In this document: piece by piece, positions 140-64,000 of the stretch
Position numbering within the stretch: the stretch's first letter is position 1
Layout of the letters: every line of letters begins with the position of its first letter
From: Chloroflexota bacterium
GTDB lineage: Bacteria > Chloroflexota > Ktedonobacteria > Ktedonobacterales > JACDGC01
Direction of reading: 5' to 3'
Length of the DNA stretch: 64,000 nt
Assembly (NCBI GenBank): GCA_021778805.1
Contig: JAJYBV010000002.1
Coordinates: 18,526 to 82,525 of the forward strand
Notes under the pieces: generated by a model
What the model was told of the DNA's origin: nothing
The model's database searches: none
Seen by the model: the letters and a program-made list of their open reading frames with translations, nothing else
Made by a program: the position numbers and the translations under genes

Positions 140-271
140 GCGGCACATCTGCTCCTAATATATCCTGGTTTTACACGCCACAACGGTATTACAGAACTGG
201 CTGCGGCGCATTGCCTATATCCATTATAACATGGATACCATACAAAGAAGCGGCAGAATAAACCAAGAGAT

Positions 272-468
272 TTGCGCGGGGATTGGGGTGTCCCCAAAAA
301 TATCTTTTTATAAACAACCACCGCACGGTACACTGAGGGAATCGTAAGGGGCATCCGCCCCTTGCGCGGGGATTGGGGTGTCCCCAAAATATCTTTTTAT
401 AAACAACCACCGCACGGTACACCGAGGGAATCGTAAGGGTCATCCGCCCCTTGCGCGGAGGTTGGAGC
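272..468 (+). repeat. Tandem array (about 2.2 copies, period 89-90 bp) of the S-unit of the mosaic repeat family
   Basis: TTGCGCGGGG recurs at 272, 362 and 451. Each unit carries hairpin AAGGGGC-ATCC-GCCCCTT, hairpin TTGGGG-TGT-CCCCAA and the tail CACCGCACGGTACAC. The last unit is truncated against the stop codon at 469-471. Confidence 0.9.
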
Positions 469-1641
469 CTATTGCTCGGTTTCCGCTATCTGCAAAAACA
501 TGCGCAATAACCTAGACGGGGAATCCAGCATATCCTTACGCAAAAAATAATAACTATAGTGTTCGCGCATCAGCAATGTTACTACACCTGCGGCGCGCAA
601 CCGAATCATATGATGTCTGGTTGTTGCTTTTGTTAACCCTAAGTGTTCCGCTAATTCGGTCAAATACATTGATCGCTGCGACAAAAGACGCAATATTCGC
701 AAGCGTGTATCATCCGAAAGCGCATCAAACAGCGCCGCCAGTTCATGCCGCTGCGAATCTTCTTCATTCAAATTCTCTAAATTTTCAACAGTTAATGGGT
801 AACAATACGTCAAGGTATCATTCACCCGCATATGGAAAATAGCCGGAGACAGCATTATGCTGGGAACTAGCACAATGCGTTCTATTGCGGCCGGGGGATC
901 GTAAATAAAGCCGCGAATGATACTGCCAAATAACTGCTCATGGCTTACTTCCTGATTCAGCATTTTCAGCCGGTTTACTTCCTTTTCTAACTGCGTCCGC
1001 AGTCGCGGCTCTTCTTCAGCAAAAACCAGCCGATACCATTCGCGTAAAATCTCCGCTAACTTGCGGCGTGTCTGCTCCGGATTAGTAAGCATTGCAACGA
1101 TACCCGCGCGTTCCGCTGAGGGAAATCTTTTTGAAAACGCGGAAATTTGTTTCGCCAAATTTTGTTTATTTTTTTCAGTGGTGTTTGGTTTAGCAGCATA
1201 TTCAAGTGATCGCACAATAAGTTCATTGGCCTGAATTTGCCAATCAGTTCCAATTCCGTCGCTTTCCAGCAATGTTTCAATAATATCTGTAATAGCAGCA
1301 TGTTGCTCAAACCAATCGAGCGTATCAGGTATACTTTCTGTTTCAGCCTGCCAAAAAATACCCGTTAATTTTGCAGCGCACCATTGTCCTTCATCTTCAC
1401 CAAAATAATAAAATAAATCTTCTTTTAACATATCCGAACACTTATTTAGCGCAGTTTCTATCCAATTGCTATCAAGGTCATAATCATCTTTGCGCGCCGG
1501 ACAAAATGCAACATGCAAGCTTAAAAGTAAATCATATACAGGATTTGCGCTAAATTGAAATATCGGCTGCTTCCGTTTGCGTTTTAACTCCACCGTTTTA
1601 GGGGTATTTTCTTCAACACTTTCATTATTTTTAGTCATCAT
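469..1641 (-). CDS. ArsR/SmtB-family transcriptional regulator with a roughly 290-aa N-terminal domain of unknown function
   Basis: 390-aa ORF. The C-terminal winged HTH is LFDALSDDTRLRILRLLSQRSMYLTELAEHLGLTKATTRHHMIRLRAAGVV. Confidence 0.75.
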   Translation of the reverse strand: MMTKNNESVEENTPKTVELKRKRKQPIFQFSANPVYDLLLSLHVAFCPARKDDYDLDSNWIETALNKCSDMLKEDLFYYFGEDEGQWCAAKLTGIFWQAETESIPDTLDWFEQHAAITDIIETLLESDGIGTDWQIQANELIVRSLEYAAKPNTTEKNKQNLAKQISAFSKRFPSAERAGIVAMLTNPEQTRRKLAEILREWYRLVFAEEEPRLRTQLEKEVNRLKMLNQEVSHEQLFGSIIRGFIYDPPAAIERIVLVPSIMLSPAIFHMRVNDTLTYCYPLTVENLENLNEEDSQRHELAALFDALSDDTRLRILRLLSQRSMYLTELAEHLGLTKATTRHHMIRLRAAGVVTLLMREHYSYYFLRKDMLDSPSRLLRMFLQIAETEQ

Positions 1642-15455: not shown

Positions 15456-17843
15456 ATGAATATCCTCACTAAATTAAAAGGATTCGTATTTGAAATGTTG
15501 CAGCAAGAACGTACATTTTCCAACAATCATCAGGATGATTCATTCCACATTCTGAACCAATGGGACCTCTTCGCATTTACAGTTCCCGTCATCGTTTGGC
15601 TGGCGAATATAACAACTATGGTGTTAGCCGGCCCATCAGGATTAACGATGTTTGTGTTGGCCAGTATCTTTTTCTTCATTCCCAGTGTATGGGTTACCCA
15701 ATGGCTTGGCAAAATGTTTCCCCGCCAATCGGGTCCCTTTATGTGGGCAGCGCGCACGCTGGGCTACAAGCGGGCATTTTTTCCAAGTTTCAGCATATGG
15801 CTGGGTGTAACCATTGGCGCAATCGGCACGCTTACCAACACCATGTTTACACTTCAATATTTTAACGCCAATTGGTTTGCCACTCCGGTTTCTGAAAGTA
15901 TTGGCATACTTATTATGCTGGCGCTGGTAACAGCCGTATGCCTTATTCCGTTACAGCAATTACGCCGCCTTGTTTTTGGCTCTACGATGGTGTATCTGGC
16001 TGCAATTGTCTGCCTTTTCGTAACTATTATTCTTTGGACAATGAGCGGCCATCTTCCGCAAACGTCATTTCACTGGCCAGATCAATGGCAAGTTTCATCC
16101 TCTACCATCGGATCATTCGGCCTTATTGTTTTTACCATAATCGGTGTAAATATGGCCATGTCTCTTGGTCCGCGAATGACCGGATCGCGCAGCGAGGTAA
16201 AGCGTTCCATGCGGTTTGTGTGGTGGGTTTTTGCCGCAGTTATAGCTATGTATCTTATCGCAGATTTTAGCGCGTTGATCATCGATACCCCAACACAGCT
16301 TGCAACGCCGTTTGTATTTACCGATGTGTTTTACAATATGTTTGGCGCGGGAGTTGCAAATTTCTTTAACGTTGTCGCTGTGATCATTGATTTTATGATA
16401 TCAGTTGTCTATGTTGTCTTACTGGCCTATGTTTTGCATTCATTTGGTGAGCATAATTATTTGCCGCCTTTGTTTGCCAAGACCACAGATCAGCATGTTC
16501 CGCGCAACGCAATTTTGGGGCAAGCAGGTAGCATTGGCGCATTGGTTGTAATAGCTTATCTCATTCTTCCCAGTGTTGCGCCATTTGGGCAAGACGCTGT
16601 CAGCAGATTTGCCATCATCACCAATATTTTAAACGCCAGCTCCAGCATAATTTGGGGATTAGGCATGCTTGTGCTGTTTCTATTCGGTCTTGCGGCGGTA
16701 ATGCGCTTTTCCGGTATGCTATCCGGAGCGAGATGGCCAATGTTCATCGTGTCTTTAGCCGGTATTCCTACAATGTTTTACAGCTTTTGGCTGACTCTTA
16801 CTGCGTCATGGATTCCAACGCTTATAGGCAATAACGCTTGGTTTGAAGCAACCCTTGGTGTTACCATATTTTTGTTGCTTGGCGGGTTGATACTTGGCGA
16901 AATATTACGCATGCACGGAGTTGTACGTGAACAAGATAGGCTGCATGCTCAATTAAAAACAACCTTCCAACAAATTGATGCGCTGATTAGAAACATTGGC
17001 AAAATGAGTTATGACGCCAACTCCGCAATGGCGCATATTCAAACGGCAACGCAATCTGTTTCACAAACAACCGGCGGACTTGCGCAATCGGTTGAAGAAG
17101 TGGCAGCTACAAGTTTGGAACAGGTAAGCACGCTAAAAGAAGCAACAAATACCATCGATTCGATGATTCAGCATACCGACACTATGAAGGTAACTCTCAG
17201 CTCGATGATTCAAACAATGGGGCGGTTGCAGCAGCAGTTTCAACAAAGCGTTCAGCAAGTTCAGAAACTTGACCAGCGTTCCATCGAGATCGGACAGATA
17301 GCTAACCTAATTGATGAAATCGCCGATCAAACAAATTTATTATCGCTGAATGCAGCAATTGAAGCAGCGCGCGCCGGCGAACAAGGGAGAGGATTTGCTG
17401 TAGTTGCGGGTGAAGTACGCAAACTTGCCGAACGAACGGCCAATTCAGTGCGCGAGATTAATGGATTAATTCATCACATTCAAAGTGAAATGGCGGAAAC
17501 CCTAGTTTCTATGGAATCCTCAAAATCTGAATTGCAATCAAGTGTTGGACAGCTCGAAACAGTAAACAGTCAAGTTACCGAGGTTGTTTCCAGCGCTGAA
17601 ACTACCCAAACGATGCTGCACCAAGTAAGCACAGTAACACGCACGAACAGCGATTCAGTTCGGGAAATGTCTTCAGTTATGGATACGACATCGCAGCAGA
17701 TTTCTGCCATCGAAGATTCTATGGGATTAATTAAAGATCTGGCTAACCAATTGGAGGAAGCCGAGAAAATTCACAGTAAAAAATCTGGTGTTACGCAGAT
17801 GCAGCAGCGTCAATCCTATCAGGAGCGAGCAATGGCCGCATAA
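15456..17843 (+). CDS. APC-superfamily permease-like 12-TM domain fused to a methyl-accepting chemotaxis signalling domain
   Basis: 795 aa. The N-terminal ~480 aa resemble amino-acid/polyamine permeases (WDLFAF.., [15 protein letters not shown]). The C-terminal MCP tip is [42 protein letters not shown]. If the sigma-28 promoter is real, the start is more likely ATG 15495 (MLQQERTF). Confidence 0.85.
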
Positions 17844-17881
17844 TTGAACATCAATTTTGACATTAAAAGGAGCACAAATCC

Positions 17882-18238
17882 GGGATACGTAAAGGGGCGA
17901 CAGCCCCTTGCGCGGGGCTTGAGGCGCCTCCCAAATACATTTTTATATGAACTTTAACAATTAAAGAGGGATAAGATATATTTGCGTAATCAGGGATACG
18001 TAAGGGGCGGAAGCCCTTCACGCGGGGATTGGGGCGCCTCCCAAAATCTCTTTTATAACAAACACCGCGCGGTACACATAGGGATACGTAAGGGGCGGAA
18101 GCCCCTTGCGCGGGGATTGGGGTGTCCCCAAAATCTCTTTTTATAAACAATATTTCCAAGGAAATATTGGCGCCAAGGTGGCCACAAAACGAACACCACA
18201 CGATGAATCGTGTGGCTTGTTTCCCCACCTCCACCCAT
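17882..18238 (+). repeat. Composite copy of the mosaic repeat family (S, L, S, S, then a deleted M/R module)
   Basis: S-units start at 17882, 17993 and 18081. The L module TGAACTTTAACAATTAAAGAGGGATAAGATATA is at 17948. The M/R part jumps from GGCGCCAAGG straight to TGGCCACAAAACGAACACCACACGATGAATCGTGTGG. Confidence 0.9.
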
Positions 18239-18307
18239 GAGGCAATGCAATCCGGCGCCGTATCTTTTGTGTTATTTGGATCTTGTCAATATTCCCTGAG
18301 TAGTTAC

Positions 18308-21603: not shown

Positions 21604-22404
21604 ATGACAACAGTAGAACCAACAACTACATCGTCAATTGCCAGTAACCAAGTCTCGGTGTTTCTCTATACAATTTATTGTGAATTAATGAAGCTCATAC
21701 GCATTCCAGCTTATGTCATTCCGGTAATCTTCTTTCCAACATTATTTTTTGCCATGTTTGGTCTGCCCAACATCAGTAATACTATTCAAGGAGCATCGGC
21801 AGGTGAATATATTTTGGCGTCGTATTCCTGTTATGGATTAATGTCGGTTGGATTTTTCTCATTTGGTGTTTCAATAGCCAGTGAGCGTGGATTAGGATGG
21901 AATAAGCTTTTGCGAGTAACACCTATGAATCCTGTTATTTATTTTTTGGCAAAAATTATTGTTGCGCTTATTGTAGGCGTTATAACAATTGCTATTCTCT
22001 TCATTTTTGGTGTTTTAACAGGCAATTTAGAATCCAAAATCGGCACATTGCTCATTATCGGATCATTTGATCTTGCAGGAATGCTGCCATTTATTGCATT
22101 TGGACTTCTGCTGGGCTATTCTACAGGACCAAATTCAGCGGCCGGTATTGCCAATCTTATCTTTTTGCCGCTATCCTTTGCGTCTGGTCTCTTCGTTCCT
22201 ATTACATATCTGCCCAGTGTTATTCAAAAAATCGCTATATATTTGCCAGCTTATCATGTTGCGCAATTAGGATGGAATTATTTGAATGCCGGAGATGGAA
22301 AATCTTATCTTTACCATCTCCTCTGGATTGCCGGATATACGATCGTTTTTGCGTTCCTGGCAGTTATAGCTTACATGAGGGATGAAAATAAAAATTATGG
22401 CTAG
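21604..22404 (+). CDS. ABC-2-type transporter permease
   Basis: 266 aa with six predicted TM helices. It starts 17 nt after the ATPase gene. Confidence 0.8.
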   Translation: MTTVEPTTTSSIASNQVSVFLYTIYCELMKLIRIPAYVIPVIFFPTLFFAMFGLPNISNTIQGASAGEYILASYSCYGLMSVGFFSFGVSIASERGLGWNKLLRVTPMNPVIYFLAKIIVALIVGVITIAILFIFGVLTGNLESKIGTLLIIGSFDLAGMLPFIAFGLLLGYSTGPNSAAGIANLIFLPLSFASGLFVPITYLPSVIQKIAIYLPAYHVAQLGWNYLNAGDGKSYLYHLLWIAGYTIVFAFLAVIAYMRDENKNYG

Positions 22405-22437
22405 CTATTTGTTGTAAAAACCGAAATAGCGCCTCAT

Positions 22438-22878
22438 CAAATTGATGAACTTTAACAATTAAAGAGGGATAAGATATACCAGCATAACCAGGGATACGTA
22501 AGGGGCGGATGCCCCTTGCGAGGGGATTGGGGTGTCCCCAAAATATTTTTATTTTAAAATTTCCCCAAGGAAATATTGGTAGCCGGGCAGCAAGGGCGAC
22601 CGCAAGGGTCGCCCCTACCGGATTGCATGGCCTCATGTGTGACCGCGCGGCGTATGCTCTAAAACAAATGATATGTGGCAGCGCTTGTGCTACGGCGCGG
22701 TGTAGGTAGCAAGGTGTCCCCGAAACGAACACCACACGATGAATCGTGTGGCTTGTTTCCCCACCTCCACCCATGTGTACCGTGCGGTGTTTGTTCAAAA
22801 ACAGGCACTATGGGGCACTCAATGTACTCTGCTCTGTTGGTCTTCATCCTGATTAAAATATTAAAGTTCATCAATTTG
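22438..22878 (+). mobile_element. Complete 441-bp non-coding MITE-like element with 18-bp perfect terminal inverted repeats (modules L-S-M-R)
   Basis: CAAATTGATGAACTTTAA at 22438-22455 is the exact reverse complement of TTAAAGTTCATCAATTTG at 22861-22878. The interior shares modules with the copies at 272, 17882, 44585, 46262 and 63968. ORFs through it differ between copies. Confidence 0.8.
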
Positions 22879-22989
22879 TTGCTCGGGTTTACTGGTTCCC
22901 ATTTAAAACCAGCTATTTAGGCGCTACCTGTTTCCATGCATTTGGAAGCAGGATTTATTGTTTTTAGAGAAAAATTTACTGATGAAATC

Positions 22990-23020
22990 GGCAGTTTCAG
23001 GAAAAACTGGCGTTTTTTTT
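22990..23020 (+). terminator. rho-independent terminator between the repeat element and clpC
   Basis: GGCAGTTT-CAGGAA-AAACTGGC, followed by a run of eight T. Confidence 0.6.
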
Positions 23021-23106
23021 GCGATATAAGTTCTGCGCTGGACAATTATTTCATATAGAACAGCCGGAATTATATCTGTTTTTCAGCAGAAACATGGAGG
23101 AAAAGC

Positions 23107-25638
23107 GTGCCTAACAATAATTTTTCACAGAAACTTCCACTGCACGAAAGCGTAACCAGTGCTTTGCAAGAAGCGCGGCAATATGCTATCAAATATCATC
23201 ACGCCGCAGTAGAATCAGAGCATTTGCTGCTGGGCATTACCGCAACCCAAAATCCATTGATATCAGCAGCGCTGCAATCGGTAAAAACATCCACACGCAA
23301 AGTGCGGAGCGCAGTTTTGTTTGTGATTACTCATGATTCCTGCACAGTTGAACCGCACATGGGTAATGAAATTGATCAAATATTAGATCGCGCAAATTCT
23401 GAAGCGATAGAGATGATGTCGCGAGAAATTAAAGTTGAACATGTATTTTTAGGGATGCTGCAAGAAGAGGGTACAATTGCGTATGCTATTCTGCACGAAC
23501 TGCACATTACTTACGACGGCATATTGCCGGAATTAACCAAATTAAGCAAAATGAACACATCAGCAATTGTCACGTTGAAAGAATCTGCAAACCGCTTTCA
23601 GTTAACCCCAACCTTAAATATGGTTAGCAGAGACCTCTCCGCCGAAGCGCAATCCGGCAAACTAGAGCCGCTTATTGGCAGAGAATATGAACTGGAACGG
23701 GTAATGCAAACTTTAACCCGCAGATCAAAAAATAATCCCGTGCTCATCGGTGAGGCCGGTGTTGGCAAAACAGCCATTGCCGAAGGACTGGCCCAGCGCA
23801 TTGCTGATGGAAACGCGCCGCCGGAATTACTGCATCAGCGCGTTGTATCGCTGGATACGGGACTGCTGACCATCGGCACCAAATTTCGCGGCGATTTTGA
23901 GGAACGATTAAAAAGCCTTGTTGCGGAAATTATCAAAGTACATAATTTAATCATCGTAGTAGATGAACTGCATACCCTTATTGGCTCCGGCGTAGCGGAA
24001 GGCTCGGTAGACGCAGCAAATTTACTGAAACCAATACTTGCCCGCGGAGAGTTTCGCTGCTTTGGAGCAACTACGCTGGATGACTACCGGAAAACAATCG
24101 AAAAAGACCCCGCTTTAGAACGCCGATTTCAACCTATTTTTATCCGGCCAAGCACTCCCGAAGAAACTAAATCGATTCTCTTTGGTCTGCGCCCGCGTTA
24201 CGAAGCTTTCCACCATGTCGCAATCTCTGACGAGGCTATTGAAGCTGCGGTAAAATTGGCAGATCGCTATGTGCATGTGCGACAATTTCCCGATAAAGCT
24301 ATCGATTTAATCGATGAAGCCGCCGCGCGGTCTCGTGTTCAGCGATCTGTTATTCCCGCGGAAGCGCTGGCGCTATCTGATTCTTTGGATTTAGTGCGCA
24401 GTGAAAAAAATTCAGCAATCGAAAATGGAGAATTTGCTCTAGCCACTGCGCTTTGGAAAAAAGAAAAGGCAATTCGCCAGCAAATTTATGCGGCAGATTC
24501 TGAATGGCGCACACAACGCGCCGGAAACAACTTTGCAGAACTAAAAGCAACCGATGTTGCAGAAATTGTATCTACCCGAACTGGGGTCCCGGCAATTGCC
24601 GCAACAGAGCAAGAAGCTGAACGGCTTCTGCGCTTAGAGGAATTGCTGCATACACATATTGTCGGACAGCAAAAAGCTGTTACCGCAACCGCGCAAGCAA
24701 TCCGCCGGGCGCGCGCCGATATTCGCGATAGGCGCCGTCCCATTGGATCTTTCATCTTTGCCGGCCCAACTGGGGTTGGGAAAACTGCCCTTGCGCGCGC
24801 GCTGGCAAAAGCATATTTTAACGATGAACAGGCAATTATCACCATTGATATGTCGGAATTTACTGAATCGCACTATGCCGCACGATTGGTCGGCTCACCA
24901 CCGGGATACGTGGGATACGATCAGGCTGGGCAGCTGACGGAAGCAGTAAAAAGGCGGCCATATACGATTGTTTTGCTTGATGAAATTGAAAAAGCTCATC
25001 CGCGGATTTATGATTTATTGCTGCAAATTTTAGAGGATGGCTGTTTAAGTGACGCCAAGGGCCGGCAAACAGATTTCAGCAACACGATTATCATTCTGAC
25101 AACAAATATCGGCGCACAGTTCAAAGCATTTTCCGGCGGATTTATTGAACCGGAGGAAAACCGAACCCGCAACGGCAAAGAAACCGCCGCGCAAAAAAGA
25201 CTAAAACGCGATTTGGCGCAAACATTTAAACCGGAATTTTTGAACCGTATTGATTCAATTATCGTGTTCGATTCGCTTACTCGGCAGGATATGCGCCAAT
25301 TGTGCGATATTGCCTTGCAGCCGCTGATACAGCGCATGCGCGATCGGCTGTATGAACTGCAGATAGACTCCGCCGCGCGCGAAGAGCTTGCCCGGCAAGG
25401 ATATAACAGTGAATATGGCGCGCGCCCATTGCTGCGGCTGATTCAAAGCAAAGTTGAAGATGTATTGGCAGAGAAAATTTTGCGCAATGAATTGCAGCCC
25501 GGTGGTGGTATTTCGATGAGCGCCGCAGATGGCAAATTTATCTTCACGGTATATCCGGAGCCTTTGCCGGCGCCCGCGCTGCAAATTACCGCGGCAGCGG
25601 ATTCGCCGCATGCGGATTTGCGGAAAGAATTGCAATAA
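23107..25638 (+). CDS. clpC: ATP-dependent Clp protease ATP-binding subunit (ClpC-like, two AAA+ modules)
   Basis: 843 aa. GTG start with GGAGG RBS. Clp_N repeats. Walker A motifs GEAGVGKTA and [11 protein letters not shown]. Also LDEIEKAHP and ARPLLRLIQ. Confidence 0.9.
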
Positions 25639-26223: not shown

Positions 26224-29200
26224 TTATCCCTGCCCCGCTTGAATATTCGCGCCTAAAAAAGCATCACTGCGCTCAGTGGGAACCCATACAACCAACGGAT
26301 GGATAGTAATAATCTCAAATCGCTGCGCTGCAAAAAATTGTTTTGTTTCATCCGTCATACCCTTATTCCCATGTTCGGAGGATTTAAATATAATAAACGG
26401 CCGGGCATGCTGCAATAACTGTGTCAAAAAGGCTAAACCACCGGGTATCTGCGATTCTTGCGACAGCATAACTACCGCAACCGAATGAATATCCTTCAGC
26501 ATAAATGCAAGTTGAAACAGATTGCTGATATTGCCAATTTTATACGCTTCGTGATTATGTTCTGCTTGCTTCGGCTGCTGTTCATAAAAGAATTCACCAA
26601 ATTCCAAACCGGGATAGCCATCGAAAACAATCATCTTGTCCTGCATTTGCCAAGATTGAATATTCGCGCGAATAACGGCTGCATTATATATATGCGGCTC
26701 AAATAATACCGCTTTATCAATATGCGTGGTTTGTGTCAGCATCTGCATGGCATAGGCGCCAGATTCCGCATCAACATCTATCACAATGCTATGTTCGGGC
26801 AACGCTTGCGCAATTTCGTTCAAAGCCGGCGTATCTTGGTAAAATAAGCGTACTCGATCGGCCATAGCTTTATTTACTAAAATCTGCGTTTCATTTTGCA
26901 GCAAAACCTCAGTTATTTCTGGTTGGGCAAGAATAACAGCTCTGCCCCAGAAATCTTTATAAATGTGGATATGGCGCGCCGAATTCAGTTGGAGCGAACC
27001 AATATGCAAATCTTGCTGTAGTTGATCAATAAAAATAAAGGTCGTAGTTTTGCTAAGGCTTGCTTGAACAGATTTAAATAACATGGTTAAATATGGCGTA
27101 TCATCAATATTGAAGTGCAGCCACACCGAAGGAGATTCATCTTCCACAGTACTTTCTATAATCTGTAACTCGTGTGTATCGTTCATCGAAATACTGTATG
27201 GTGTTGCAGCATCAATATTTAACGCCGCAAAAATTTCTGCCGCAATCAGTTTGCGATGCGCCGCGTTTTGCAAATAATCCGACAAATTTTTCACTGGATT
27301 GCCAATTTCTCGCGGATCCGCAAGCTGTCCGGCTGCATCACTGTTTTGCGGCAAAGTTTGGTAAATGCGCCCGACGATTTCAATTATCTTATCTTGCATA
27401 TATTCTATACCATGCAAAGAAGCCTTAACCGAATAAATATGATCACTGTATTCACTGTCTACTTGGTTTAGTTTTTCTTTAATTGCGTCTATATGGCTGC
27501 CATATTCCTGAAGCATGGTATGTAATGTGTTCTTAAGCGCAAAAATATGATCACCATATTCAGTATCCACTTGGTTTAGTTTTTCTTTAATTGCAAAAAC
27601 ATGATCAGATAATTCGTTCACGCGATTTTGCAGCGCCTGTATTTCCTGTAACTTGAGTTGGAGCTGCCGCTGCGATTGACTGACGCTGTTGGCAGATTCC
27701 GAAGATTTTTGGGTCGATTCACTATACATAGGCTGGTTGCCATACTGATATAGCATTTGTTCTTGCAAACTGCTTAATTTTGCTTCCAATTCTGCAACGC
27801 GGCTGCTCATTTGGCGGTATTCATTCAGTGATATAACATTTATTGCGCCTTGCTGTTCGTTTAGCCGACCCAAAGAAAACACACGCACGGCAATGCGGAG
27901 CAGTGTGCCGATGCCTTTTTGTTTCTTAAATGGTACCCGCTGATCGCGTGTGCGGGTCCAATCCCATTTATGCAGCAAATCTTGATGAAAGTTCACAAAC
28001 TCTGATGTATCCGCCGTTGCTTTAACGGGTGAAGGCAAACCGGGTTTCGCGTCAATTGCATTTAACCGGTTGATAATAACTGTAGCGGCCGCGTGTGCGC
28101 TATATTGCCTGCGGATATCTTTTGCCGCAATCGCGCCTTTTTGCCGAGCTTCCTCCGGATGCTCAAAAACATGGAGCATAAGCTGCGCAGCGTGATCGAT
28201 GTTTGGTTCTGCCCAAACAAATCCCGGCTGATATACCTTTGCGCAATCCGGATGATAGTGATGCTCTTCCAACGTAATCGTGCGAATTGTAAAATCTACC
28301 GGATATGAGTTTTCCGCAGTCATATAATCGGCGTTGCCGGAATAACCGGTTGCGATAACCGGTTTGCCAAGGTACATTGCCTCTGCCATACCTAACCCAA
28401 AGCCTTCAGCGCGATGCAGGGAAACATAGGCGTCGCAGCAAGCAAGTAAATCATTCATCTGTCTTCGTGTCAGATATGATTCAATGAGCATTCCACCAAC
28501 ATTTTCCACCGCATTTTTCAAGGCTTTTGCAAGCATTGGATAATTCTCTAAATTCTGCGATTTTATAACCAGCAGTGGTTTTTTGCCGGGATAATTCCAA
28601 AACGCCTTTTGAAAAGCTTGCGCCACTCCCAATGGATTTTTGCGTGATTCACAGGAATTTGCGTCGAAGGTAAAGAGAAAAACAAATGCCTGTGAAGGCA
28701 AATGAAATTGCGATCTATCAGGAACATCCGATGTTTCAATTGAGATTGGCATAGGAATAACCGAAACAGGCGCTTGCGTATATGCTTCAATATTTTGTTT
28801 GGTAAACGCGGAATTAACCCATATTTCACTGACTCGTTGAATATGGTCCTTAAAAATATCGGCAACCTTTTCCAATTCCCACGCCCAAAACGCAATAGTA
28901 TATTTGTTATCGGTCAGCGTTGTAAGTTCTTCGTCGTTAATCCAGGGCATATCATTAATATTATTTAAAAATAAATTAATTGGATATGTGGATGCGCGCG
29001 GCAGACCAACAAACCGAGCCGGCAGCGGATTTTTAGGATCGGCTCCATAATAAATTTTTTCCCGGTAAGAAACCGGAATATTTTTCCCTAAAAGCACATC
29101 AAACAAACGCGCCGCAGCTGTTACCAATCCGGTTTCGGAGCGTAAATCGCCAATAACATTCAAACCGGAAACATGGGTAAAGGGATTCCAATAACTCAGA

Positions 29201-30426
29201 TCTTTCTTAATATCAATCTGCTCCATCGCCAAGGTATCTTGTACAATATGAATTAATTTCTGCCCCATAAGATCCCACGAGGCATTTTGCTCGATAAATT
29301 CACGAGCTTGTTCACCCGATGACTTTACCAGCGCCGGATTATCTGAGGCTTTTAACAAATATTGGGTTAGTTGTTGTGTTTCATGCGGTGTATTTGCTTC
29401 TATGCGCCAGCAATATGTGTTATCATATTCTCTAAATTGTGGAAGATCAGAGGTAATAACCACCTTACCGGCGCCAAACGCCCGTAGCATTACTCCTGAT
29501 GTTTCCCCCGATGTGGGCCAGCGCAAATTAACCACCACATCTACACATTGCACATACTCCAAAAAGGAGTTCATATCTAAATTAGGAATAGAGATGACAA
29601 CATTGGTTAACCCCAACGTTTTGATTTGTTTTTTAATTTTCTGTACATATTCTTGCTCTTCTTCAAATCCAACGATCAATAAGCGCGCATTGGGATTTTT
29701 TTTATAAAGCGCATGAAAAGCATTAAGAATAACATGTATGCGTTTTGTATGGTTTACCCGGCCGAAAGCGCCAATCAACAAGTGATTTTCGGAAAAATTG
29801 AATTTTCTGCGCAGCTGCGCCGCAGTTTTTGCAGCAAACACATCTGCGCCATGAAAAATATTATATAGCTGCGTATTTGGGTACGCTTTAGCATAAAATT
29901 CCTTGCTCCATTGGCTATGCACCACTACCGATAAACTGCTGTCAAAAATTCGCTTAGTAAGGTGATAGGTTAACCTATCGGGGTGTTTATGCTGCTGAAG
30001 CAATTTCTGCAGATTTTGTGCGGCTTGTTCACCATAGTTATAGCGAACTTCGTTTAATAATTTTGCAAGATCATTCTGCCAAAGATAACTGTGGAAATCA
30101 TAAAGCGACATATCATGCTGCAATACAATACCCGGATGGCTTAATGCGCGATCATAAATATATTTATGGAAAAAAGGATTATTTCCCAAATTATAAATAT
30201 TGACATCAAAAGGCGCAAAATCGTTGCGTTCATCATAATAATCTTCGCCCCACACTAACGCGCCGGGATGGGGAAACGCAGGGGGAAGAGCAGCGTTATC
30301 AGTAAATATTTCTAAATCGCAGTATTTGGCCAAAGCGGCAATCAAATCTGTGCTATAATCAGATATTCCGCTTTCCAACGGTGGAAATGGTGACCAATAT
30401 GCAACGCGATAGCTAGTATCTTTCAT
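26224..30426 (-). CDS. giant multidomain protein: GT4 glycosyltransferase, second GT4, coiled coil, then C-terminal FkbM-like methyltransferase
   Basis: About 1400 aa. The likely start is MKDTSYRVAYW at 30426, with GAGGA upstream. The second GT domain has SLHRAEGFGLGMAEAMYLGKPVIATGYSGN. Heptad-rich segment around aa 850-1010. The C-terminus has VIDVDAESGAYAMQM..VLFEP (tentatively FkbM-like). Confidence 0.85.
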   Translation of the reverse strand: MKDTSYRVAYWSPFPPLESGISDYSTDLIAALAKYCDLEIFTDNAALPPAFPHPGALVWGEDYYDERNDFAPFDVNIYNLGNNPFFHKYIYDRALSHPGIVLQHDMSLYDFHSYLWQNDLAKLLNEVRYNYGEQAAQNLQKLLQQHKHPDRLTYHLTKRIFDSSLSVVVHSQWSKEFYAKAYPNTQLYNIFHGADVFAAKTAAQLRRKFNFSENHLLIGAFGRVNHTKRIHVILNAFHALYKKNPNARLLIVGFEEEQEYVQKIKKQIKTLGLTNVVISIPNLDMNSFLEYVQCVDVVVNLRWPTSGETSGVMLRAFGAGKVVITSDLPQFREYDNTYCWRIEANTPHETQQLTQYLLKASDNPALVKSSGEQAREFIEQNASWDLMGQKLIHIVQDTLAMEQIDIKKDLSYWNPFTHVSGLNVIGDLRSETGLVTAAARLFDVLLGKNIPVSYREKIYYGADPKNPLPARFVGLPRASTYPINLFLNNINDMPWINDEELTTLTDNKYTIAFWAWELEKVADIFKDHIQRVSEIWVNSAFTKQNIEAYTQAPVSVIPMPISIETSDVPDRSQFHLPSQAFVFLFTFDANSCESRKNPLGVAQAFQKAFWNYPGKKPLLVIKSQNLENYPMLAKALKNAVENVGGMLIESYLTRRQMNDLLACCDAYVSLHRAEGFGLGMAEAMYLGKPVIATGYSGNADYMTAENSYPVDFTIRTITLEEHHYHPDCAKVYQPGFVWAEPNIDHAAQLMLHVFEHPEEARQKGAIAAKDIRRQYSAHAAATVIINRLNAIDAKPGLPSPVKATADTSEFVNFHQDLLHKWDWTRTRDQRVPFKKQKGIGTLLRIAVRVFSLGRLNEQQGAINVISLNEYRQMSSRVAELEAKLSSLQEQMLYQYGNQPMYSESTQKSSESANSVSQSQRQLQLKLQEIQALQNRVNELSDHVFAIKEKLNQVDTEYGDHIFALKNTLHTMLQEYGSHIDAIKEKLNQVDSEYSDHIYSVKASLHGIEYMQDKIIEIVGRIYQTLPQNSDAAGQLADPREIGNPVKNLSDYLQNAAHRKLIAAEIFAALNIDAATPYSISMNDTHELQIIESTVEDESPSVWLHFNIDDTPYLTMLFKSVQASLSKTTTFIFIDQLQQDLHIGSLQLNSARHIHIYKDFWGRAVILAQPEITEVLLQNETQILVNKAMADRVRLFYQDTPALNEIAQALPEHSIVIDVDAESGAYAMQMLTQTTHIDKAVLFEPHIYNAAVIRANIQSWQMQDKMIVFDGYPGLEFGEFFYEQQPKQAEHNHEAYKIGNISNLFQLAFMLKDIHSVAVVMLSQESQIPGGLAFLTQLLQHARPFIIFKSSEHGNKGMTDETKQFFAAQRFEIITIHPLVVWVPTERSDAFLGANIQAGQG
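27425..27640 (-). repeat. In-frame 108-bp (36-aa) tandem duplication inside the coiled-coil segment of the giant glycosyltransferase
   Basis: ACTTGGTTTAGTTTTTCTTTAATTGC occurs at 27461-27486 and 27569-27594 and encodes AIKEKLNQV. At protein level there are four 18-aa units of the form DHxFAxKxxLxxxxxEYG. Confidence 0.85.
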
Positions 30427-30448
30427 AATGCGCATCCTCGGTTAATAT

Positions 30449-44389: not shown

Positions 44390-44497
44390 TCCGCTAACCT
44401 CTTCTTTTGAAGTTTCTGGTATGAGTATATGCGCGTCGCGGCAAAATCTTGAGGGGCAGAAGTCACTGAATTCGCTTGATTACCGGGTCTATTTTTA

Positions 44498-44560
44498 TAG
44501 CTACAAGTTTTGTATGGTTTGTCGAATGGCTTTTCATGGCGTTTTGAATCATTGTACTTG
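44498..44560 (-). pseudogene. decayed relic of the 3' end of an epimerase gene (displaced att-like copy)
   Basis: Positions 44498-44530 match 46337-46369 at 32 of 33 nt. In the gene frame the relic reads ..FKTP*KAIRQTIQNL*, against FTSTPHRLAIRQTIQNLQL in the intact gene. Confidence 0.5.
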
Positions 44561-44584: not shown

Positions 44585-45057
44585 TCGTGTTTGGGGACAC
44601 CCCCAAACATAATTTTTTATTCCAAAAGCAATATTAATAGCTTGGCGCCAAGGGCGACCGCGCGGTGTACATAACTAGGGATTCGTAAGGGGCGGATGCC
44701 CCTTGCGCGGGGTTTGGGGTGTCCCCATAATATCTTTTTATTTTTCTGATGGAAAATACTGGCAGCTTGGCGCCAAGGGCGACCGCAAGGGTCGCCCTAC
44801 CGGTTTGCATCGCCTCAATGTGTACCGTGCGGCGTATGCTATAAAACAAACGATATGTGGCAGCGCTTGTGCTTCGGAGCGGTGCAGGTGGCAAGGTGGC
44901 CCCGAAACGAACACCACACGATGAATCATGTGGCTTGTTTCCCCACATCCACCCATGTGTACCGTGCAGTGGTTGTTCAACAACAGGCACTATGGGCATT
45001 CAATATACTCTGCTCTGTTGATCTTCATCCCGATTAAAATATCAAAGACCATTACAA
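44585..45057 (+). repeat. Composite, degenerate copy of the mosaic repeat family (partial hairpin, M', S, M, R; right end decayed)
   Basis: By eye about 90 percent identical to 22490-22860 over S+M+R. The right terminus ATATCAAAGACCATTACAAC is a decayed TIR. It has an extra GGGGACACCCC hairpin at 44594-44604. Confidence 0.85.
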
Positions 45058-45208: not shown

Positions 45209-45430
45209 ATGCTTCACCGTCATCTGAATCATCAGGATTACACACTTGCCGCTATTGACGATATCATTGGTCGAGGCAAAAGACAGGATTGGGCAGATTT
45301 ACGCCAAGCAGCTCTTAGCGATACCGTTATTATGGAAAAAATATTGCAGGTTTGTAATGCACAAGTAAGTGATCCTTATGCGCAACGATATTACTTCTGG
45401 AAATATTATGCCGAACAACATCTATCCTGA
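45209..45430 (+). CDS. small protein, putative partner/antitoxin of the downstream AbiEii-like nucleotidyltransferase
   Basis: 73 aa. It overlaps the downstream gene by 23 nt, a TA-like arrangement. No recognisable HTH. Confidence 0.45.
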   Translation: MLHRHLNHQDYTLAAIDDIIGRGKRQDWADLRQAALSDTVIMEKILQVCNAQVSDPYAQRYYFWKYYAEQHLS

Positions 45431-46094
45431 CTGGGAGCAGGTTCTTTCTTCTGCTGCCCAATTACAGCAAATCCTGCCAGATGCAGTTCTGGTTGGTGGT
45501 ACTGCGGCAGCATTTTATGCCGAACACAGGCTTTCCACTGATGCTGATCATATTCTAACTAACCTGCAAAGCCATTTTGACGAAATACTGGCACAACTCG
45601 AATCTGTAGCAGGATGGAAAACTGCGCGAGTTCGTCGTCCTGTACTAATTCTTGGAAATCTTGATGGTATTGAAACTGGTATCCGGCAATTAATTCGTGA
45701 GGAGCCATTGGAAACCACGCAAATTGAAATTATTGGCCAAAAAATCACCGTTCCAACTCAAGCGGAAATTTTGCGGATCAAAGGCGCACTCATACTAAAG
45801 AGAAACGCTACACGTGATTATTTGGATTTTATTGCTCTTGCCGAACATTTGGGTTCGGAGAATGTCATAGGAGCTTTGCTGTCGTTTGATCGTCTTTATC
45901 CACAACAAAATGGTGAATCAGCTTTACAGCAACTTCAAATTCAATTGGCAAATCCGCTTCCTTACGATCTTGATACTGTTCATCTGAGTGAGTACAAACA
46001 ATTAGATCTTCGCTGGCATGATTGGAACGTTGTCAAATCTTTATGTATGAATTATGCTGTATTGATGTTTGACAGGATTATCGGAGGCAATTAA
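45408..46094 (+). CDS. nucleotidyltransferase, AbiEii/AbiGii toxin-like family
   Basis: VLVGGTAAAFYAEHRLSTDADHIL matches the GGTA..HR.S.D.D core of the DUF1814/AbiEii family. The start is taken at MPNNIYPDW. Confidence 0.65.
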   Translation: MPNNIYPDWEQVLSSAAQLQQILPDAVLVGGTAAAFYAEHRLSTDADHILTNLQSHFDEILAQLESVAGWKTARVRRPVLILGNLDGIETGIRQLIREEPLETTQIEIIGQKITVPTQAEILRIKGALILKRNATRDYLDFIALAEHLGSENVIGALLSFDRLYPQQNGESALQQLQIQLANPLPYDLDTVHLSEYKQLDLRWHDWNVVKSLCMNYAVLMFDRIIGGN

Positions 46095-46261
46095 GAACCA
46101 CAAACCTTGCTAATTTTTTTGAGTAGATCTTAAAAAGCAGTTCCAACGCCTCGGCTATATGCTCTATCAGGTTCGCTCTCGTTTATAGGAAGACTACATA
46201 ACCCAGGAGTTACTCTACCATCGCATCTCTCTTATTCCTTTAGTAAGGGTATGCCCTATTA

Positions 46262-46320
46262 TTCGCAAGGGGCGGCTGCCCCTTGCGCGGGGATTGAGGT
46301 GTCCCCCCCTCCAAAAAAAC
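46262..46320 (+). repeat. Solo S-unit hairpin pair of the mosaic repeat family
   Basis: CAAGGGGC-GGCT-GCCCCTTGCGCGGGGATTGAGGTGTCCCC, followed by CCAAAAAAACATAATT. Confidence 0.8.
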
Positions 46321-46324
46321 ATAA

Positions 46325-47317
46325 TTACTGTGTATCTAGCTGCAAGTTTTGTATGGTTTGTCGAATGGCCAAGCGATGGGGCGTAGAAGTAAAATTGCCA
46401 AAAGCTTGCAAAAACTTTGTTGCGTCAACTAGATATGGGCGATCAAATTCATATCGCATTTCATATATTTCCCGCACGATGGGGTCGAACATTCCAGTGG
46501 CCAGCAGCATCCACGGCGCAAACACCTGTATTTTTACAGAATGACTGCGCGGCGGCGCGCCGATTTGCGCATCATATTCTTCTTGCAGTATGGTTAGAAA
46601 CTGCCGGCCGGTTATTGCTTGCGGGGATGGTATGTTCCATATTTCGCCAAGCGCTTTTTCTTGCTGTGACAATATTAGCAGACCTTCAGCAAAATCATCC
46701 ACATAAATTATAGCGTGCGGTTGATCGGCAGAAACGATCCATGGCAACGCTTTATGATTGCGCAATGCGTTCATAGTGCGCGTATTGATGATGAGAGAAT
46801 TCAATGCGCTGGGACCATAATAATCTGGCGCGCGGCCAATAGCAGCGCGAATACTGCCTTGTTGATGCGCTGTCATTATTTTTTCACTGAGTTTAACGCG
46901 GATTTTGCCTTTTTGCGTAATCGGCGCATATGGCAAAGTTTCCACCAACGGATCTGTGGATGGCGGGTACATATACAAATTATCAGCAAGTATTAATTTG
47001 GCGTTTGCGTGCGCGGCGGCGGCAATAACATTTTCCAGCATAATGGGCAGCAATTCTGCCCATTGGTGATATGGCGCATTAGCGCAATAATAGATGATTT
47101 TAGCGTCACGGCATGCAGCGATAATCTCATCTTTCTGCAAAACATCCGCCGGATAAAACTCTACTTTTCCATCCTGGCTGATAGCGCGCCGGCAATTGCG
47201 GCTGATAGCGCGTACAGGGATATTTTTAGCGGCAAGCGCCCTGGTAACAGCTGCACCAATACCGCTGCCGGCGCCAAGTACAATCGTTTGCGCAAATAAT
47301 TGTGAATCTGGATTCAT
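46325..47317 (-). CDS. NAD(P)-dependent epimerase/dehydratase-family (SDR) protein
   Basis: 330 aa. Rossmann motif VLGAGSGIGAAVTRAL. Extended-SDR length. Confidence 0.8.
   Translation of the reverse strand: MNPDSQLFAQTIVLGAGSGIGAAVTRALAAKNIPVRAISRNCRRAISQDGKVEFYPADVLQKDEIIAACRDAKIIYYCANAPYHQWAELLPIMLENVIAAAAHANAKLILADNLYMYPPSTDPLVETLPYAPITQKGKIRVKLSEKIMTAHQQGSIRAAIGRAPDYYGPSALNSLIINTRTMNALRNHKALPWIVSADQPHAIIYVDDFAEGLLILSQQEKALGEIWNIPSPQAITGRQFLTILQEEYDAQIGAPPRSHSVKIQVFAPWMLLATGMFDPIVREIYEMRYEFDRPYLVDATKFLQAFGNFTSTPHRLAIRQTIQNLQLDTQ
46337..46369. repeat. 33-bp direct repeat (att-like), partner of 44498-44530
   Basis: TAGCTGCAAGTTTTGTATGGTTTGTCGAATGGC versus TAGCTACAAGTTTTGTATGGTTTGTCGAATGGC. 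This copy encodes the last residues of the epimerase. Confidence 0.85.
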
Positions 47318-63967: not shown

Positions 63968-64000
63968 ACTGATCTTTGATATTTTAATTAGGATGAAGAC
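63968..64000 (-). repeat. Right end of another mosaic-family copy in inverted orientation, truncated by the window end
   Basis: The reverse complement GTCTTCATCCTAATTAAAATATCAAAGATCA matches 22849-22868 and 45011-45040. Confidence 0.7.

What the first reader, a model, noticed from the sequence alone, without database searches (positions are those of the whole stretch)
22438..22878. Complete TIR-bounded 441-bp non-coding element: reference copy of a modular repeat family with no transposase in sight
Perfect 18-bp terminal inverted repeats (CAAATTGATGAACTTTAA) enclose four recognisable modules. L is the left-end module. S is a double G4/C4 hairpin unit. M is a TTTCC..GGAAA / CCAA..TTGG hairpin module. 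R is about 280 bp with several strong hairpins. The same modules recur in different combinations at 272-468, 17882-18238, 44585-45057, 46262-46320 and 63968-64000, always between genes. I see no obvious target-site duplication. No conserved ORF runs through the copies. This resembles a BOX/BIME-like mosaic crossed with a MITE, and I do not recognise it as a described family.
Basis: seen in the sequence. Interest (0 to 1): 0.75.

Follow-up and report, generated by a model that had tools for sequence, protein, structure and literature searches.

The report
Modular hairpin-rich MITE from IS630 transposon
The 441-bp feature is a real, high-copy, non-coding mobile element whose two ends are leftovers of an IS630-family insertion sequence and whose middle is a cassette of hairpin modules; it is a new family of a known kind, with one unusual trait: it lands in the tip of DNA hairpins without duplicating the target.

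Summary
The 18-bp perfect inverted repeat, the four modules and the listed extra copies are all present. The family is abundant: at least 15 composite loci in about 127 kb of non-redundant DNA from one uncultured, probably Chloroflexota, population.

Module order is always L-(S-X)n-S-M-R1-R2-R3, a layout like the pneumococcal BOX element. Other full copies show the real element is 427 bp (22445-22871, ATG...CAT).

The ends are not orphan. L matches the left end of IS630-family insertion sequences found in other metagenomes. R3 matches their right end, including the last ~24 transposase codons. So this is a MITE derived from an IS630-family element. No matching transposase was found in this organism.

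There is no TA duplication. The base outside ATG/CAT varies (T, G or A). Five element ends sit at the exact centre of the family's own R2 hairpin. A related IS sits in one of four otherwise intact hairpin junctions of a tandem array and adds nothing but itself.

There is no evidence for a conserved ORF, a known RNA family or a host function.

The parts
22438..22444 (.). Left flank CAAATTG: left arm of the palindromic insertion site, not part of the element
   Evidence: Not conserved at the left end of any other copy. With 22872-22878 it reconstitutes the palindrome CA(T)CAAATTG^CAATTTG(T)TG (pair I1).
22445..22499 (+). L module: left inverted repeat (~26 bp, ATGAACTTTAACAATTAAAGAGGGAT) plus ~20-30 nt of subterminal sequence of an IS630-family IS
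   Evidence: Aligns with the left ends of the IS copies in L026, L033 and L037, about 28 of 39 nt. Present at the start of 12 copies.
22500..22555 (+). S unit: two G/C hairpins (CGTAAGGGGC-GGAT-GCCCCTTGCG and TTGGGG-TGT-CCCCAA) and an A/T tail. Variable in number in other copies, where a 33-nt X spacer separates units.
   Evidence: 36 copies collected. 95% of stem cells are paired, with almost no covariation. Three versus four units at one locus in different assemblies.
22556..22583 (+). M module: TTTCC-CCAA-GGAAA / CCAA..TTGG hairpin
   Evidence: found between S and R in 9 copies.
22584..22680 (+). R1 module: GGGCGACC-GCAAG-GGTCGCCC hairpin and the first copy of the motif CATGTGTRACCGYGCGGYG
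   Evidence: The X spacer of S arrays is the reverse complement of this motif (X hits 22775-22795 and 44957-44977 on the minus strand).
22681..22780 (+). R2 module with the 20-nt near-palindrome CCACACGATG^AATCGTGTGG (22732-22751, loop TGAA): a hot spot for insertion of further copies
   Evidence: Five element ends abut exactly half of this hairpin. It is terminator-like on both strands.
22781..22871 (+). R3 module: right end of the IS630-family IS, i.e. the last ~24 transposase codons (..LCSVGLHPD-stop) plus the right inverted repeat
   Evidence: blastn to L026, 82.5% over 40 nt, E = 2e-6. blastx always hits the extreme C-terminus of the transposases. Alignment.
22872..22878 (.). Right flank CAATTTG: right arm of the palindromic insertion site
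256..490 (+). S-X-S-X-S array without L or R ends, truncated at both sides, abutting the stop codon of the ArsR-type gene 469..1641(-)
17882..18239 (+). Composite copy S | L-S-X-S-M-R2. L is inserted in the A/T tail of an S unit; R1 and R3 are missing. It lies between convergent MCP and DeoC genes.
44585..45052 (+). Rearranged copy lacking L (M/R1 fragment - X tail - S - M - R1 - R2 - R3), with right end ...TCAAAGACCAT
46262..46320 (+). Solitary S unit between convergent genes
63969..64000 (-). Right (R3) end of a further copy in inverted orientation, cut by the window end

Best explanation
The element is a non-autonomous transposon (a MITE) derived from an IS630-family (Tc1/mariner superfamily) insertion sequence. 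The true unit here is 22445-22871: 427 bp, 5'-ATG...CAT-3'.

Its L module is the left inverted repeat and adjacent sequence of such an IS. Its R3 module is the IS right end, still holding the last transposase codons. The transposase gene has been replaced by a cassette of hairpin modules (S, M, R1, R2).

Inferred: copies are moved in trans by a cognate IS630-family transposase that binds the ~26-bp terminal repeats and is encoded elsewhere in the genome.

Shown for related IS copies, and consistent for this family: integration goes between the two middle bases of a T-N-N-A loop at the tip of a hairpin or palindrome, and adds only ATG...CAT, with no target duplication. The window copy sits in such a site, which is why its repeat looks 18 bp long.

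The element's own R2 hairpin has a TGAA loop, so copies nest into each other. Inferred: deletions between the resulting direct repeats, and slippage of the 89-95-bp S-X unit, then produce the mosaic of truncated, nested and variable-length copies.
For: Family and grammar: at least 15 composite loci in ~127 kb, always in the order L-(S-X)n-S-M-R1-R2-R3. Seven full copies with different flanks are 86-90% identical.

Termini: ATGRWCTTTAAC... and ...AAAGWYCAT in 12 left and 9 right ends.

Link to IS630:
- A metagenome scan with the terminal-repeat consensus found L026, a 1168-bp IS with the same termini. It encodes an HTH domain plus DDE_3.
- Relatives P0135 and P0140 and the L026 transposase pass NCBIfam's IS630 equivalog cut-off, and sources name homologues 'IS630 family transposase'.
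- The P0140 and P0135 IS copies carry the same ends.
- L and R3 align with the IS ends. R3 translates to the transposase C-terminus, e.g. TLNILHYVGLYPN against SLALLHYVGLYPD-stop.
- L028 holds a different 112-bp MITE with the same terminal repeat.

Integration site:
- In L037, an 89-bp tandem array has the junction GTGACGACTT^CAGTCGTCC intact three times and once split by exactly ATGAAT...GATCAT, 1165 bp.
- Five ends of our family abut CCACACGAT[G/T], exactly half of R2, and one right end is followed by AATCGTGTGG.
- In 41 ends, base -2 is T in 36, and base -1 is T 20, G 14, A 7.

S-unit number differs between assemblies at one locus.

Background from the literature: IS630 transposases bind their inverted repeats (PMC2170065), and RUP and Correia are IS630-derived MITEs (PMC2229807, PMC2817692).
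Against: No IS630-family transposase was found in the window or in about 60 kb of other DNA from the same population, so the cognate partner is unproven.

No orthologous empty site for any copy of this family was obtained. The closest relative found, with 80% permease identity, has lost synteny.

The lack of a TA duplication contradicts the defining behaviour of IS630/Tc1/mariner (PMC2170065). The integration model rests on paralogous sites in metagenome assemblies, where left and right flanks of multi-copy elements can be chimeric.

S-only arrays have no terminal repeats, so part of the family may spread or persist by another route.

Copies are 86-90% identical, so current activity is not shown.
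Confidence: 0.8

Rival explanations
1. REP/BIME-type system: the G/C hairpin modules (S, R1, R2) are repetitive extragenic palindromes spread by a REP-associated tyrosine transposase (RAYT, IS200/IS605-like) acting on single-stranded hairpins. On this view the inverted repeat of this copy is incidental.
For: The modules are G/C-rich hairpins in regularly spaced arrays with an 89-95 bp period. They are intergenic and often lie between convergent genes. S-only arrays lack terminal repeats. Loop flips occur: GGAT versus ATCC, and GA versus TC.
Against: No Y1/RAYT gene appears in the window or in the gene tables of the other loci. Modules keep one fixed order and orientation between L and R3, unlike the alternating REPs of BIMEs. 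Both ends are homologous to IS630-family IS ends, including transposase codons.
Confidence: 0.07
2. The element is primarily a host-functional structured RNA or regulatory cassette (3'-UTR stabiliser, terminator or sRNA). It would be conserved for that role and merely repeated.
For: Very strong predicted structure on both strands. R2 and S hairpin 2 score as terminator-like. Copies lie downstream of genes or between convergent genes. One-sided stem changes are mostly G-C to G-U on the + strand.
Against: No Rfam family matches and there is no promoter-like site inside. Covariation is negligible: 1 of 16 pairs, 2 cells, within shuffle range. Copies occur in both orientations relative to neighbouring genes and are truncated or nested at random-looking points. 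The terminator-like hits have poor T tracts. A better terminator-like hairpin lies outside the element at 22927-22952.
Confidence: 0.08
3. Assembly artefact: the mosaic and the palindromic flanks are produced by metagenome assemblers collapsing or mis-joining repeats.
For: L019 joins two different loci through an element. L020 carries the same 30-nt flank at two copies in inverted orientation. Many contigs end inside elements.
Against: The window copy and its flanks are 100% identical in 8 independent contigs from ENA, NCBI and Logan assemblies. The copy at the L013 locus is identical in six assemblies.
Confidence: 0.03

Closest known systems
RUP (repeat unit of pneumococcus) and Correia/NEMIS elements: IS630-related MITEs
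   Same: Short, non-coding, high-copy and intergenic. The terminal inverted repeats resemble those of an IS630-family IS, so trans-mobilisation by that transposase is inferred (PMC2229807, PMC2817692).
   Different: RUP (107 bp) and Correia elements insert at TA and are flanked by TA. This family is about four times longer and has a modular hairpin interior with a variable-number unit. It retains transposase codons at one end and shows no TA duplication.
BOX elements of Streptococcus pneumoniae (boxA-boxB(n)-boxC)
   Same: Terminal modules enclose a variable number of an internal unit. Size is variable (BOX is 67-637 bp). BOX is MITE-like, strongly structured and thought to be mobilised in trans (PMC3184786).
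   Different: Different phylum, and no sequence relation was tested or expected. BOX is attributed to ISStso1 rather than to an IS630 end-derived structure. Here the ends are demonstrably IS ends.
IS630 / ISY100 / Tc1-mariner insertion sequences
   Same: The related autonomous elements are ~1.16-1.17 kb, have ~26-bp inverted repeats, encode HTH plus DDE_3 transposases, and pass the NCBIfam IS630 equivalog model.
   Different: Canonical members insert almost only at TA and duplicate it (ISY100: 34 of 39 in vitro, PMC2170065). This clade's ends read ATG...CAT, with variable outer bases (T, G or A). In L037 the insertion adds no duplicated base.
REP-targeting insertion sequences (IS1397, ISKpn1, ISPsy8, ISPa11, ISPpu9/10, ISRm22)
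   Same: Insertion at a fixed point of a repeated extragenic palindrome, often on the symmetry axis. Hybrid flanks arise through recombination between copies (PMC1525189).
   Different: Those belong to the IS3, IS110, IS4, IS256 and IS5 families; IS630 is not listed (PMC1525189). Here the target hairpin (R2) is carried by the non-autonomous element itself.
REP/BIME mosaics with RAYT transposases
   Same: G/C-rich hairpins in regularly spaced mosaic arrays between genes.
   Different: Fixed module order and orientation, IS630-type terminal repeats, and no RAYT seen.

Membership tests
MITE (miniature inverted-repeat transposable element) | Small (under about 600 bp) and non-coding | tested here: met
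   Full copies are 424-566 bp. ORFs differ in frame between copies, and there are 1-nt indels.
MITE (miniature inverted-repeat transposable element) | Terminal inverted repeats shared by copies at different loci | tested here: met
   ATGRWCTTTRA... and ...TYAAAGWYCAT at 12 left and 9 right ends. The imperfect repeat is ~26 bp, matching at 17 of 26 positions between L and R.
MITE (miniature inverted-repeat transposable element) | Multiple dispersed copies | tested here: met
   At least 15 composite loci in ~127 kb, with 7 full copies at distinct flanks.
MITE (miniature inverted-repeat transposable element) | Direct target-site duplication | tested here: not met
   No direct repeat flanks any full copy. 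Flanks are often inverted-complementary instead.
MITE (miniature inverted-repeat transposable element) | Terminal repeats match those of an autonomous IS | tested here: met
   They match the IS copies in L026, L029-L036 and L037/L038. Those IS come from other metagenomes, not the same organism.
IS630-family derived element | Cognate transposase is an HTH + DDE_3 protein of the IS630 family | tested here: met
   Pfam DDE_3 with HTH_29/32. NCBIfam NF033545 scores 134.6, 112.8 and 103.3 bits against a cut-off of 100. This holds for the related IS only.
IS630-family derived element | Insertion at TA with TA duplication | tested here: not met
   The base outside A|TG is T in only 20 of 41 ends (G 14, A 7). 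The window copy reads GA...TC. The occupied site in L037 differs from three intact sites by exactly ATG...CAT.
IS630-family derived element | An autonomous copy present in the same genome | tested here: inconclusive
   None in the 64-kb window or in ~60 kb of other contigs of the population. The whole genome is not available and the look-up caps are exhausted.
BOX-like modular repeat | End modules enclosing a variable number of an internal unit | tested here: met
   L-(S-X)n-S-M-R with one to four S units. Three versus four units at one locus.
BOX-like modular repeat | Sequence homology to boxA, boxB and boxC of Streptococcus | not tested
   No BOX sequences were at hand. The different phylum makes homology unlikely.
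REP/BIME | Association with a RAYT (Y1 transposase), and REPs in alternating orientation | tested here: not met
   No Y1 transposase in the window or in locus gene tables. Modules have a fixed orientation within a copy.
Known RNA family (Rfam 15) | Match at the gathering score | tested here: not met
   No match in the whole window. The best sub-threshold hit in 22350-23110 scores 19 bits.

The most novel reading that the evidence does not exclude
A clade of IS630-family transposons, and the MITEs derived from it, does not use the canonical TA duplication. Instead it integrates with no stagger into the T-N^N-A loop at the tip of hairpin repeats. These include 80-95-bp tandem hairpin arrays found in several uncultured lineages.

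The MITE studied here carries its own landing hairpin (R2). It therefore self-nests and builds BOX/BIME-like mosaics. This would add IS630 to the families that target extragenic palindromes, and would be a DDE transposase of the Tc1/mariner superfamily that leaves no target duplication.
Probability: 0.45. Interest if true: 0.6.

Novelty: new variant of a known kind. Interest (0 to 1): 0.45.

Why it matters
It explains a conspicuous repeat that fills about 2.5% of this window and breaks metagenome assemblies of an uncultured Chloroflexota-like bacterium.

It gives a clear example of how a BOX-like modular mosaic can arise: IS ends, a captured hairpin cassette, and self-nesting.

If the insertion rule is confirmed, a branch of the best-studied cut-and-paste superfamily (IS630/Tc1/mariner) would have changed both target choice (hairpin tips instead of TA) and integration geometry (no duplication). 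That is testable in vitro with the 360-aa transposases recovered here.

Tried and rejected
- Rfam at gathering and permissive thresholds: nothing.
- Conserved ORF: rejected, because frames differ and there are 1-nt indels. The only coding trace is the transposase C-terminal remnant in R3.
- Genome-collection scan with the S pattern: only two real hits, L010 and L011, plus one chance hit, L009. The host genome is not usefully represented in that collection.
- Viral contigs with the terminal-repeat pattern: none.
- Empty-site test through the closest permease homologue (80% identity): synteny is lost and no modules are present.
- Target-duplication models of TA, AT, a 3-bp TNA and 1 bp: each fails on the window copy, the R2 junctions or the L037 array.
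- Reading R2 as an excision footprint (duplication plus 2-4 terminal bases): does not fit the lengths observed.
- A palindrome like CAAATTGATCAATTTG as an independent repeat: not enriched in the window.
- Covariation in the S hairpins: negligible.
- Replication-strand orientation bias: five of six window copies are +, but orientations are mixed within L012 and L013.
- Search for the cognate IS in the same population through three transposase look-ups (P0140, P0135, P0219): all came from other samples.

Full report
**1. Observation**

The sequence at 22438-22878 is as described. CAAATTGATGAACTTTAA (22438-22455) is the perfect reverse complement of 22861-22878, and the arms continue imperfectly to 36 nt at 81% complementarity.

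Repeat finding over the window recovers the modules:
- The 56-nt S unit occurs nine times.
- A 202-nt stretch of R occurs twice at 90% identity, with a third partial copy.
- The L module occurs twice.

Together they make up about 1.58 kb, or 2.5% of the window, and all are intergenic.

The element folds far better than shuffled sequence on either strand: z = -6.9 as DNA, -7.7 and -6.4 as RNA. Rfam has no match. ORFs through the copies fall in different frames, and copies differ by 1-nt indels.

**2. Host and context**

The window is a chromosomal stretch with housekeeping, chemotaxis and flagellar genes (FlhA, FlhB, FliR, rod proteins, MCPs) and no transposase.

The permease next to the element has its nearest named homologues in Chloroflexota. 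One S unit lies in a MAG labelled Ktedonobacteria. I take the host to be an uncultured Chloroflexota-like bacterium. This is an inference from best hits, not a phylogeny.

The locus is 100% identical in eight contigs from ENA, NCBI and Logan assemblies.

**3. The family**

Gene callers put spurious ORFs on the copies. A protein search with the 144-aa pseudo-ORF therefore recovered further copies, and their contigs were fetched.

In about 127 kb of non-redundant DNA there are at least 15 composite loci. The module order and orientation are always L-(S-X)n-S-M-R1-R2-R3. X is a 33-nt spacer that is the reverse complement of a motif present twice in R.

Seven full copies with unrelated flanks are 424-566 bp long and 86-90% identical to the window copy.

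At one locus, assemblies differ by exactly one 95-bp S-X unit: four units against three. This behaves like a variable-number repeat, although assembler collapse is not excluded.

**4. True termini**

Aligning the full copies shows that similarity starts at ATGRWCTTTAAC and stops at AAAGWYCAT. They are flank.

In this copy the two flanks are inverted complements of each other over 10 nt with one mismatch. The empty site would therefore be the palindrome CATCAAATTG^CAATTTGTTG. The element proper is 22445-22871 (427 bp).

**5. Origin of the ends**

A scan of JGI metagenomes with the consensus of the two terminal repeats gave four loci.

- L026 contains a 1168-bp insertion sequence. It is bounded by ATGAACTTTAACAATTTAATCCGGAT... 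and ...ATCCGGATTATTTTGTTAAAGTTCAT, and encodes an HTH domain and a DDE_3 domain.
- Its homologues are named IS630-family transposases. Three of them pass NCBIfam's IS630 equivalog cut-off.
- Eight loci of a 74%-identical transposase (P0140) and two of another (P0135) have the same ends.

The L module aligns with the left end of these IS copies for about 39 nt. R3 aligns with their right end for about 45 nt.

Translated, R3 matches the extreme C-terminus of the transposases. For example, VQCLFNNRHYGALNVLCSVGLYPD aligns with VQAWLDQWALGSVDLLRYVGLYPD-stop. Single E-values are weak (0.002-0.6), but the matches to this C-terminal stretch all end at the last or next-to-last residue of the transposase.

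The element is therefore a deletion derivative of an IS630-family IS in which the transposase gene has been replaced by hairpin modules.

L028 holds a 112-bp element with the same terminal repeat and different hairpins. The terminal repeat is thus the shared, presumably transposase-binding, part. IS630-family transposases bind their inverted repeats (PMC2170065). RUP and Correia are precedents for IS630-related MITEs (PMC2229807, PMC2817692).

**6. Integration site**

Canonical IS630/Tc1/mariner elements insert at TA and duplicate it (PMC2170065). That is not what is seen here.

Across 41 ends of the MITE and of the related IS copies:
- The constant part is ATG...CAT.
- The base just outside is T (20), G (14) or A (7).
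- The next base out is T in 36.

The window copy reads TTG|ATG...CAT|CAA, which cannot be a direct duplication.

The clearest case is L037. An 89-bp tandem array has the unit junction GTGACGACTT^CAGTCGTCC, a hairpin with a TTCA loop, intact three times. Once it is split by exactly ATGAAT...GATCAT of 1165 bp.

In our family, five element ends abut CCACACGAT[G/T], which is exactly half of the R2 near-palindrome CCACACGATG^AATCGTGTGG. One right end is followed by AATCGTGTGG.

The flanks of the P0140 and P0219 IS copies are likewise halves of hairpins that occur intact nearby: CCCGGCTG^AAGCCGGG, AGCGACTT^TAGTCGCT and GGCCCGACTG^AAGTCGGGCC.

All junctions fit one rule: insertion between the two middle bases of a T-N-N-A hairpin loop, with no duplication. 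Target-duplication models of TA, AT, TNA or 1 bp each fail on some junction.

Left and right flanks of a given IS often come from different hairpins. This can result from recombination between copies, as described for other REP-targeting IS (PMC1525189), or from chimeric assembly.

That survey lists the IS3, IS110, IS4, IS256 and IS5 families as REP-targeting, but not IS630.

**7. How the mosaic arises (inferred)**

R2 carries a TGAA loop, so copies insert into copies.

In L012, three units follow each other. The first two stop at the R2 loop, and only the last has the second half of R2. This is what nested insertion followed by deletion between the duplicated R2 and downstream sequences would leave.

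The copy at 17882-18239 has an L end inserted in the A/T tail of an S unit.

S-only arrays (256-490, 46262-46320) have no terminal repeats. They may be decayed copies or an independent hairpin-repeat layer that the MITE captured. This remains open.

**8. Rivals**

- A REP/RAYT system is unlikely. No Y1 transposase was seen, module orientation is fixed, and the ends are IS630-type.
- A host RNA function is not supported. There is no Rfam family and no internal promoter-like site. Covariation is negligible: 1 of 16 pairs. Only weak terminator-like hits were found, and a better terminator-like hairpin lies outside the element at 22927-22952. Co-option of individual copies cannot be excluded.
- Assembly artefacts affect some contigs (L019, L020) but not the window copy.

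**9. Verdict**

It is an undescribed family, as far as Rfam and the searchable literature show. It belongs to a known kind, the IS630-derived MITE. It has two features worth a specialist's attention: a self-carried hairpin landing site, and apparent integration into hairpin loops without a target duplication.

The cognate transposase in the same organism and true orthologous empty sites are still missing.

Noticed in passing
window 44489-44530 and 46328-46369: A 42-nt direct repeat (88% identical) brackets a 1.84-kb segment. The segment holds the rearranged element copy, an AbiEii-like ORF (45369-46094) and a solitary S unit. The second repeat overlaps the 3' end of the epimerase gene 46325..47317(-). 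This looks like an integrated segment that duplicated the gene end.
   Followed up: no
L019 (GCA_027399295.1 contig DAHYYW010000086.1) 4456-6693 vs window 15909-18142: This MAG contig joins the MCP gene of the window to a PNPase/ribosomal protein S15 locus through an element copy. It is either a chimeric assembly across the repeat or a real recombination between copies.
   Followed up: partly
L020 2340-2369 and 7748-7797: Two element copies in opposite orientation carry the identical 30-nt left flank, one of them at the contig end. This is probably a fold-back artefact of the assembler.
   Followed up: no
L010 (MAG 'Bacteroidetes bacterium BP9.bin49', 3163 bp): A 31% G+C contig with a ParA-like gene ends in S-S-M-R1 modules, 83% identical to the window. 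Its first 126 nt resemble window 46136-46259, the sequence just upstream of the solitary S unit. It could be a plasmid or mobile element of the same host, a mis-binned contig, or horizontal spread of the family.
   Followed up: partly
L011 6290-6487 (MAG 'Ktedonobacteria bacterium clean5'): A single S unit is flanked by a 28-nt direct repeat, GCCGCAGGGATGTGAGGAGCATCTTATG, with the second copy at the contig end. This is either a long duplication at an S insertion or an assembly artefact.
   Followed up: no
L037 814-2314; L033 2520-2620; L030 1369-1420: Other uncultured lineages carry tandem arrays of 80-89-bp units made of G/C hairpins, for example CAGTCGTCCGGGTTCCCGG...GTGACGACTT. IS630-family copies sit in these arrays. 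The 89-bp period equals that of the S-X array here, but there is no obvious sequence similarity.
   Followed up: partly
window 346-363 vs 22500-22517; L012 6589-6608 vs window 22732-22751: Hairpin loops are found in both orientations with unchanged stems: GGGGC-ATCC-GCCCC against GGGGC-GGAT-GCCCC in S, and GAT-TC-ATC against GAT-GA-ATC in R2. This suggests loop inversion by intrastrand template switching or recombination within the stems.
   Followed up: no
L028 289-400: A 112-bp MITE, ATGAAC...GTTCAT, has the same L-type terminal repeat as the window element but two different hairpins (GGGGGCGATTTATCGCGCCC and GCCGATTTATCGGC). It lies in a JGI soil or sediment contig.
   Followed up: partly
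window 22927-22952: A terminator-like hairpin, CCTGTTTCCATGCATTTGGAAGCAGG, followed by ATTTATTGTT lies 56 nt downstream of the element. It may be the native terminator of the ABC transporter operon, which the element would then have separated from the stop codon.
   Followed up: no
window 27424-27486 and 27532-27594: A 63-nt direct repeat (87% identical), 108 nt apart, lies inside the 1403-aa glycosyltransferase ORF 26224..30435(-). It is an internal coding repeat unrelated to the element family.
   Followed up: no
L026 383-411: A hairpin, CCCGACGATGAATCGTCGGG, shares the core CGATGAATCG and the TGAA loop with R2 but has different stem bases. It lies 35 nt from the IS end and forms the last codons of a TPR-protein ORF.
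   Followed up: no
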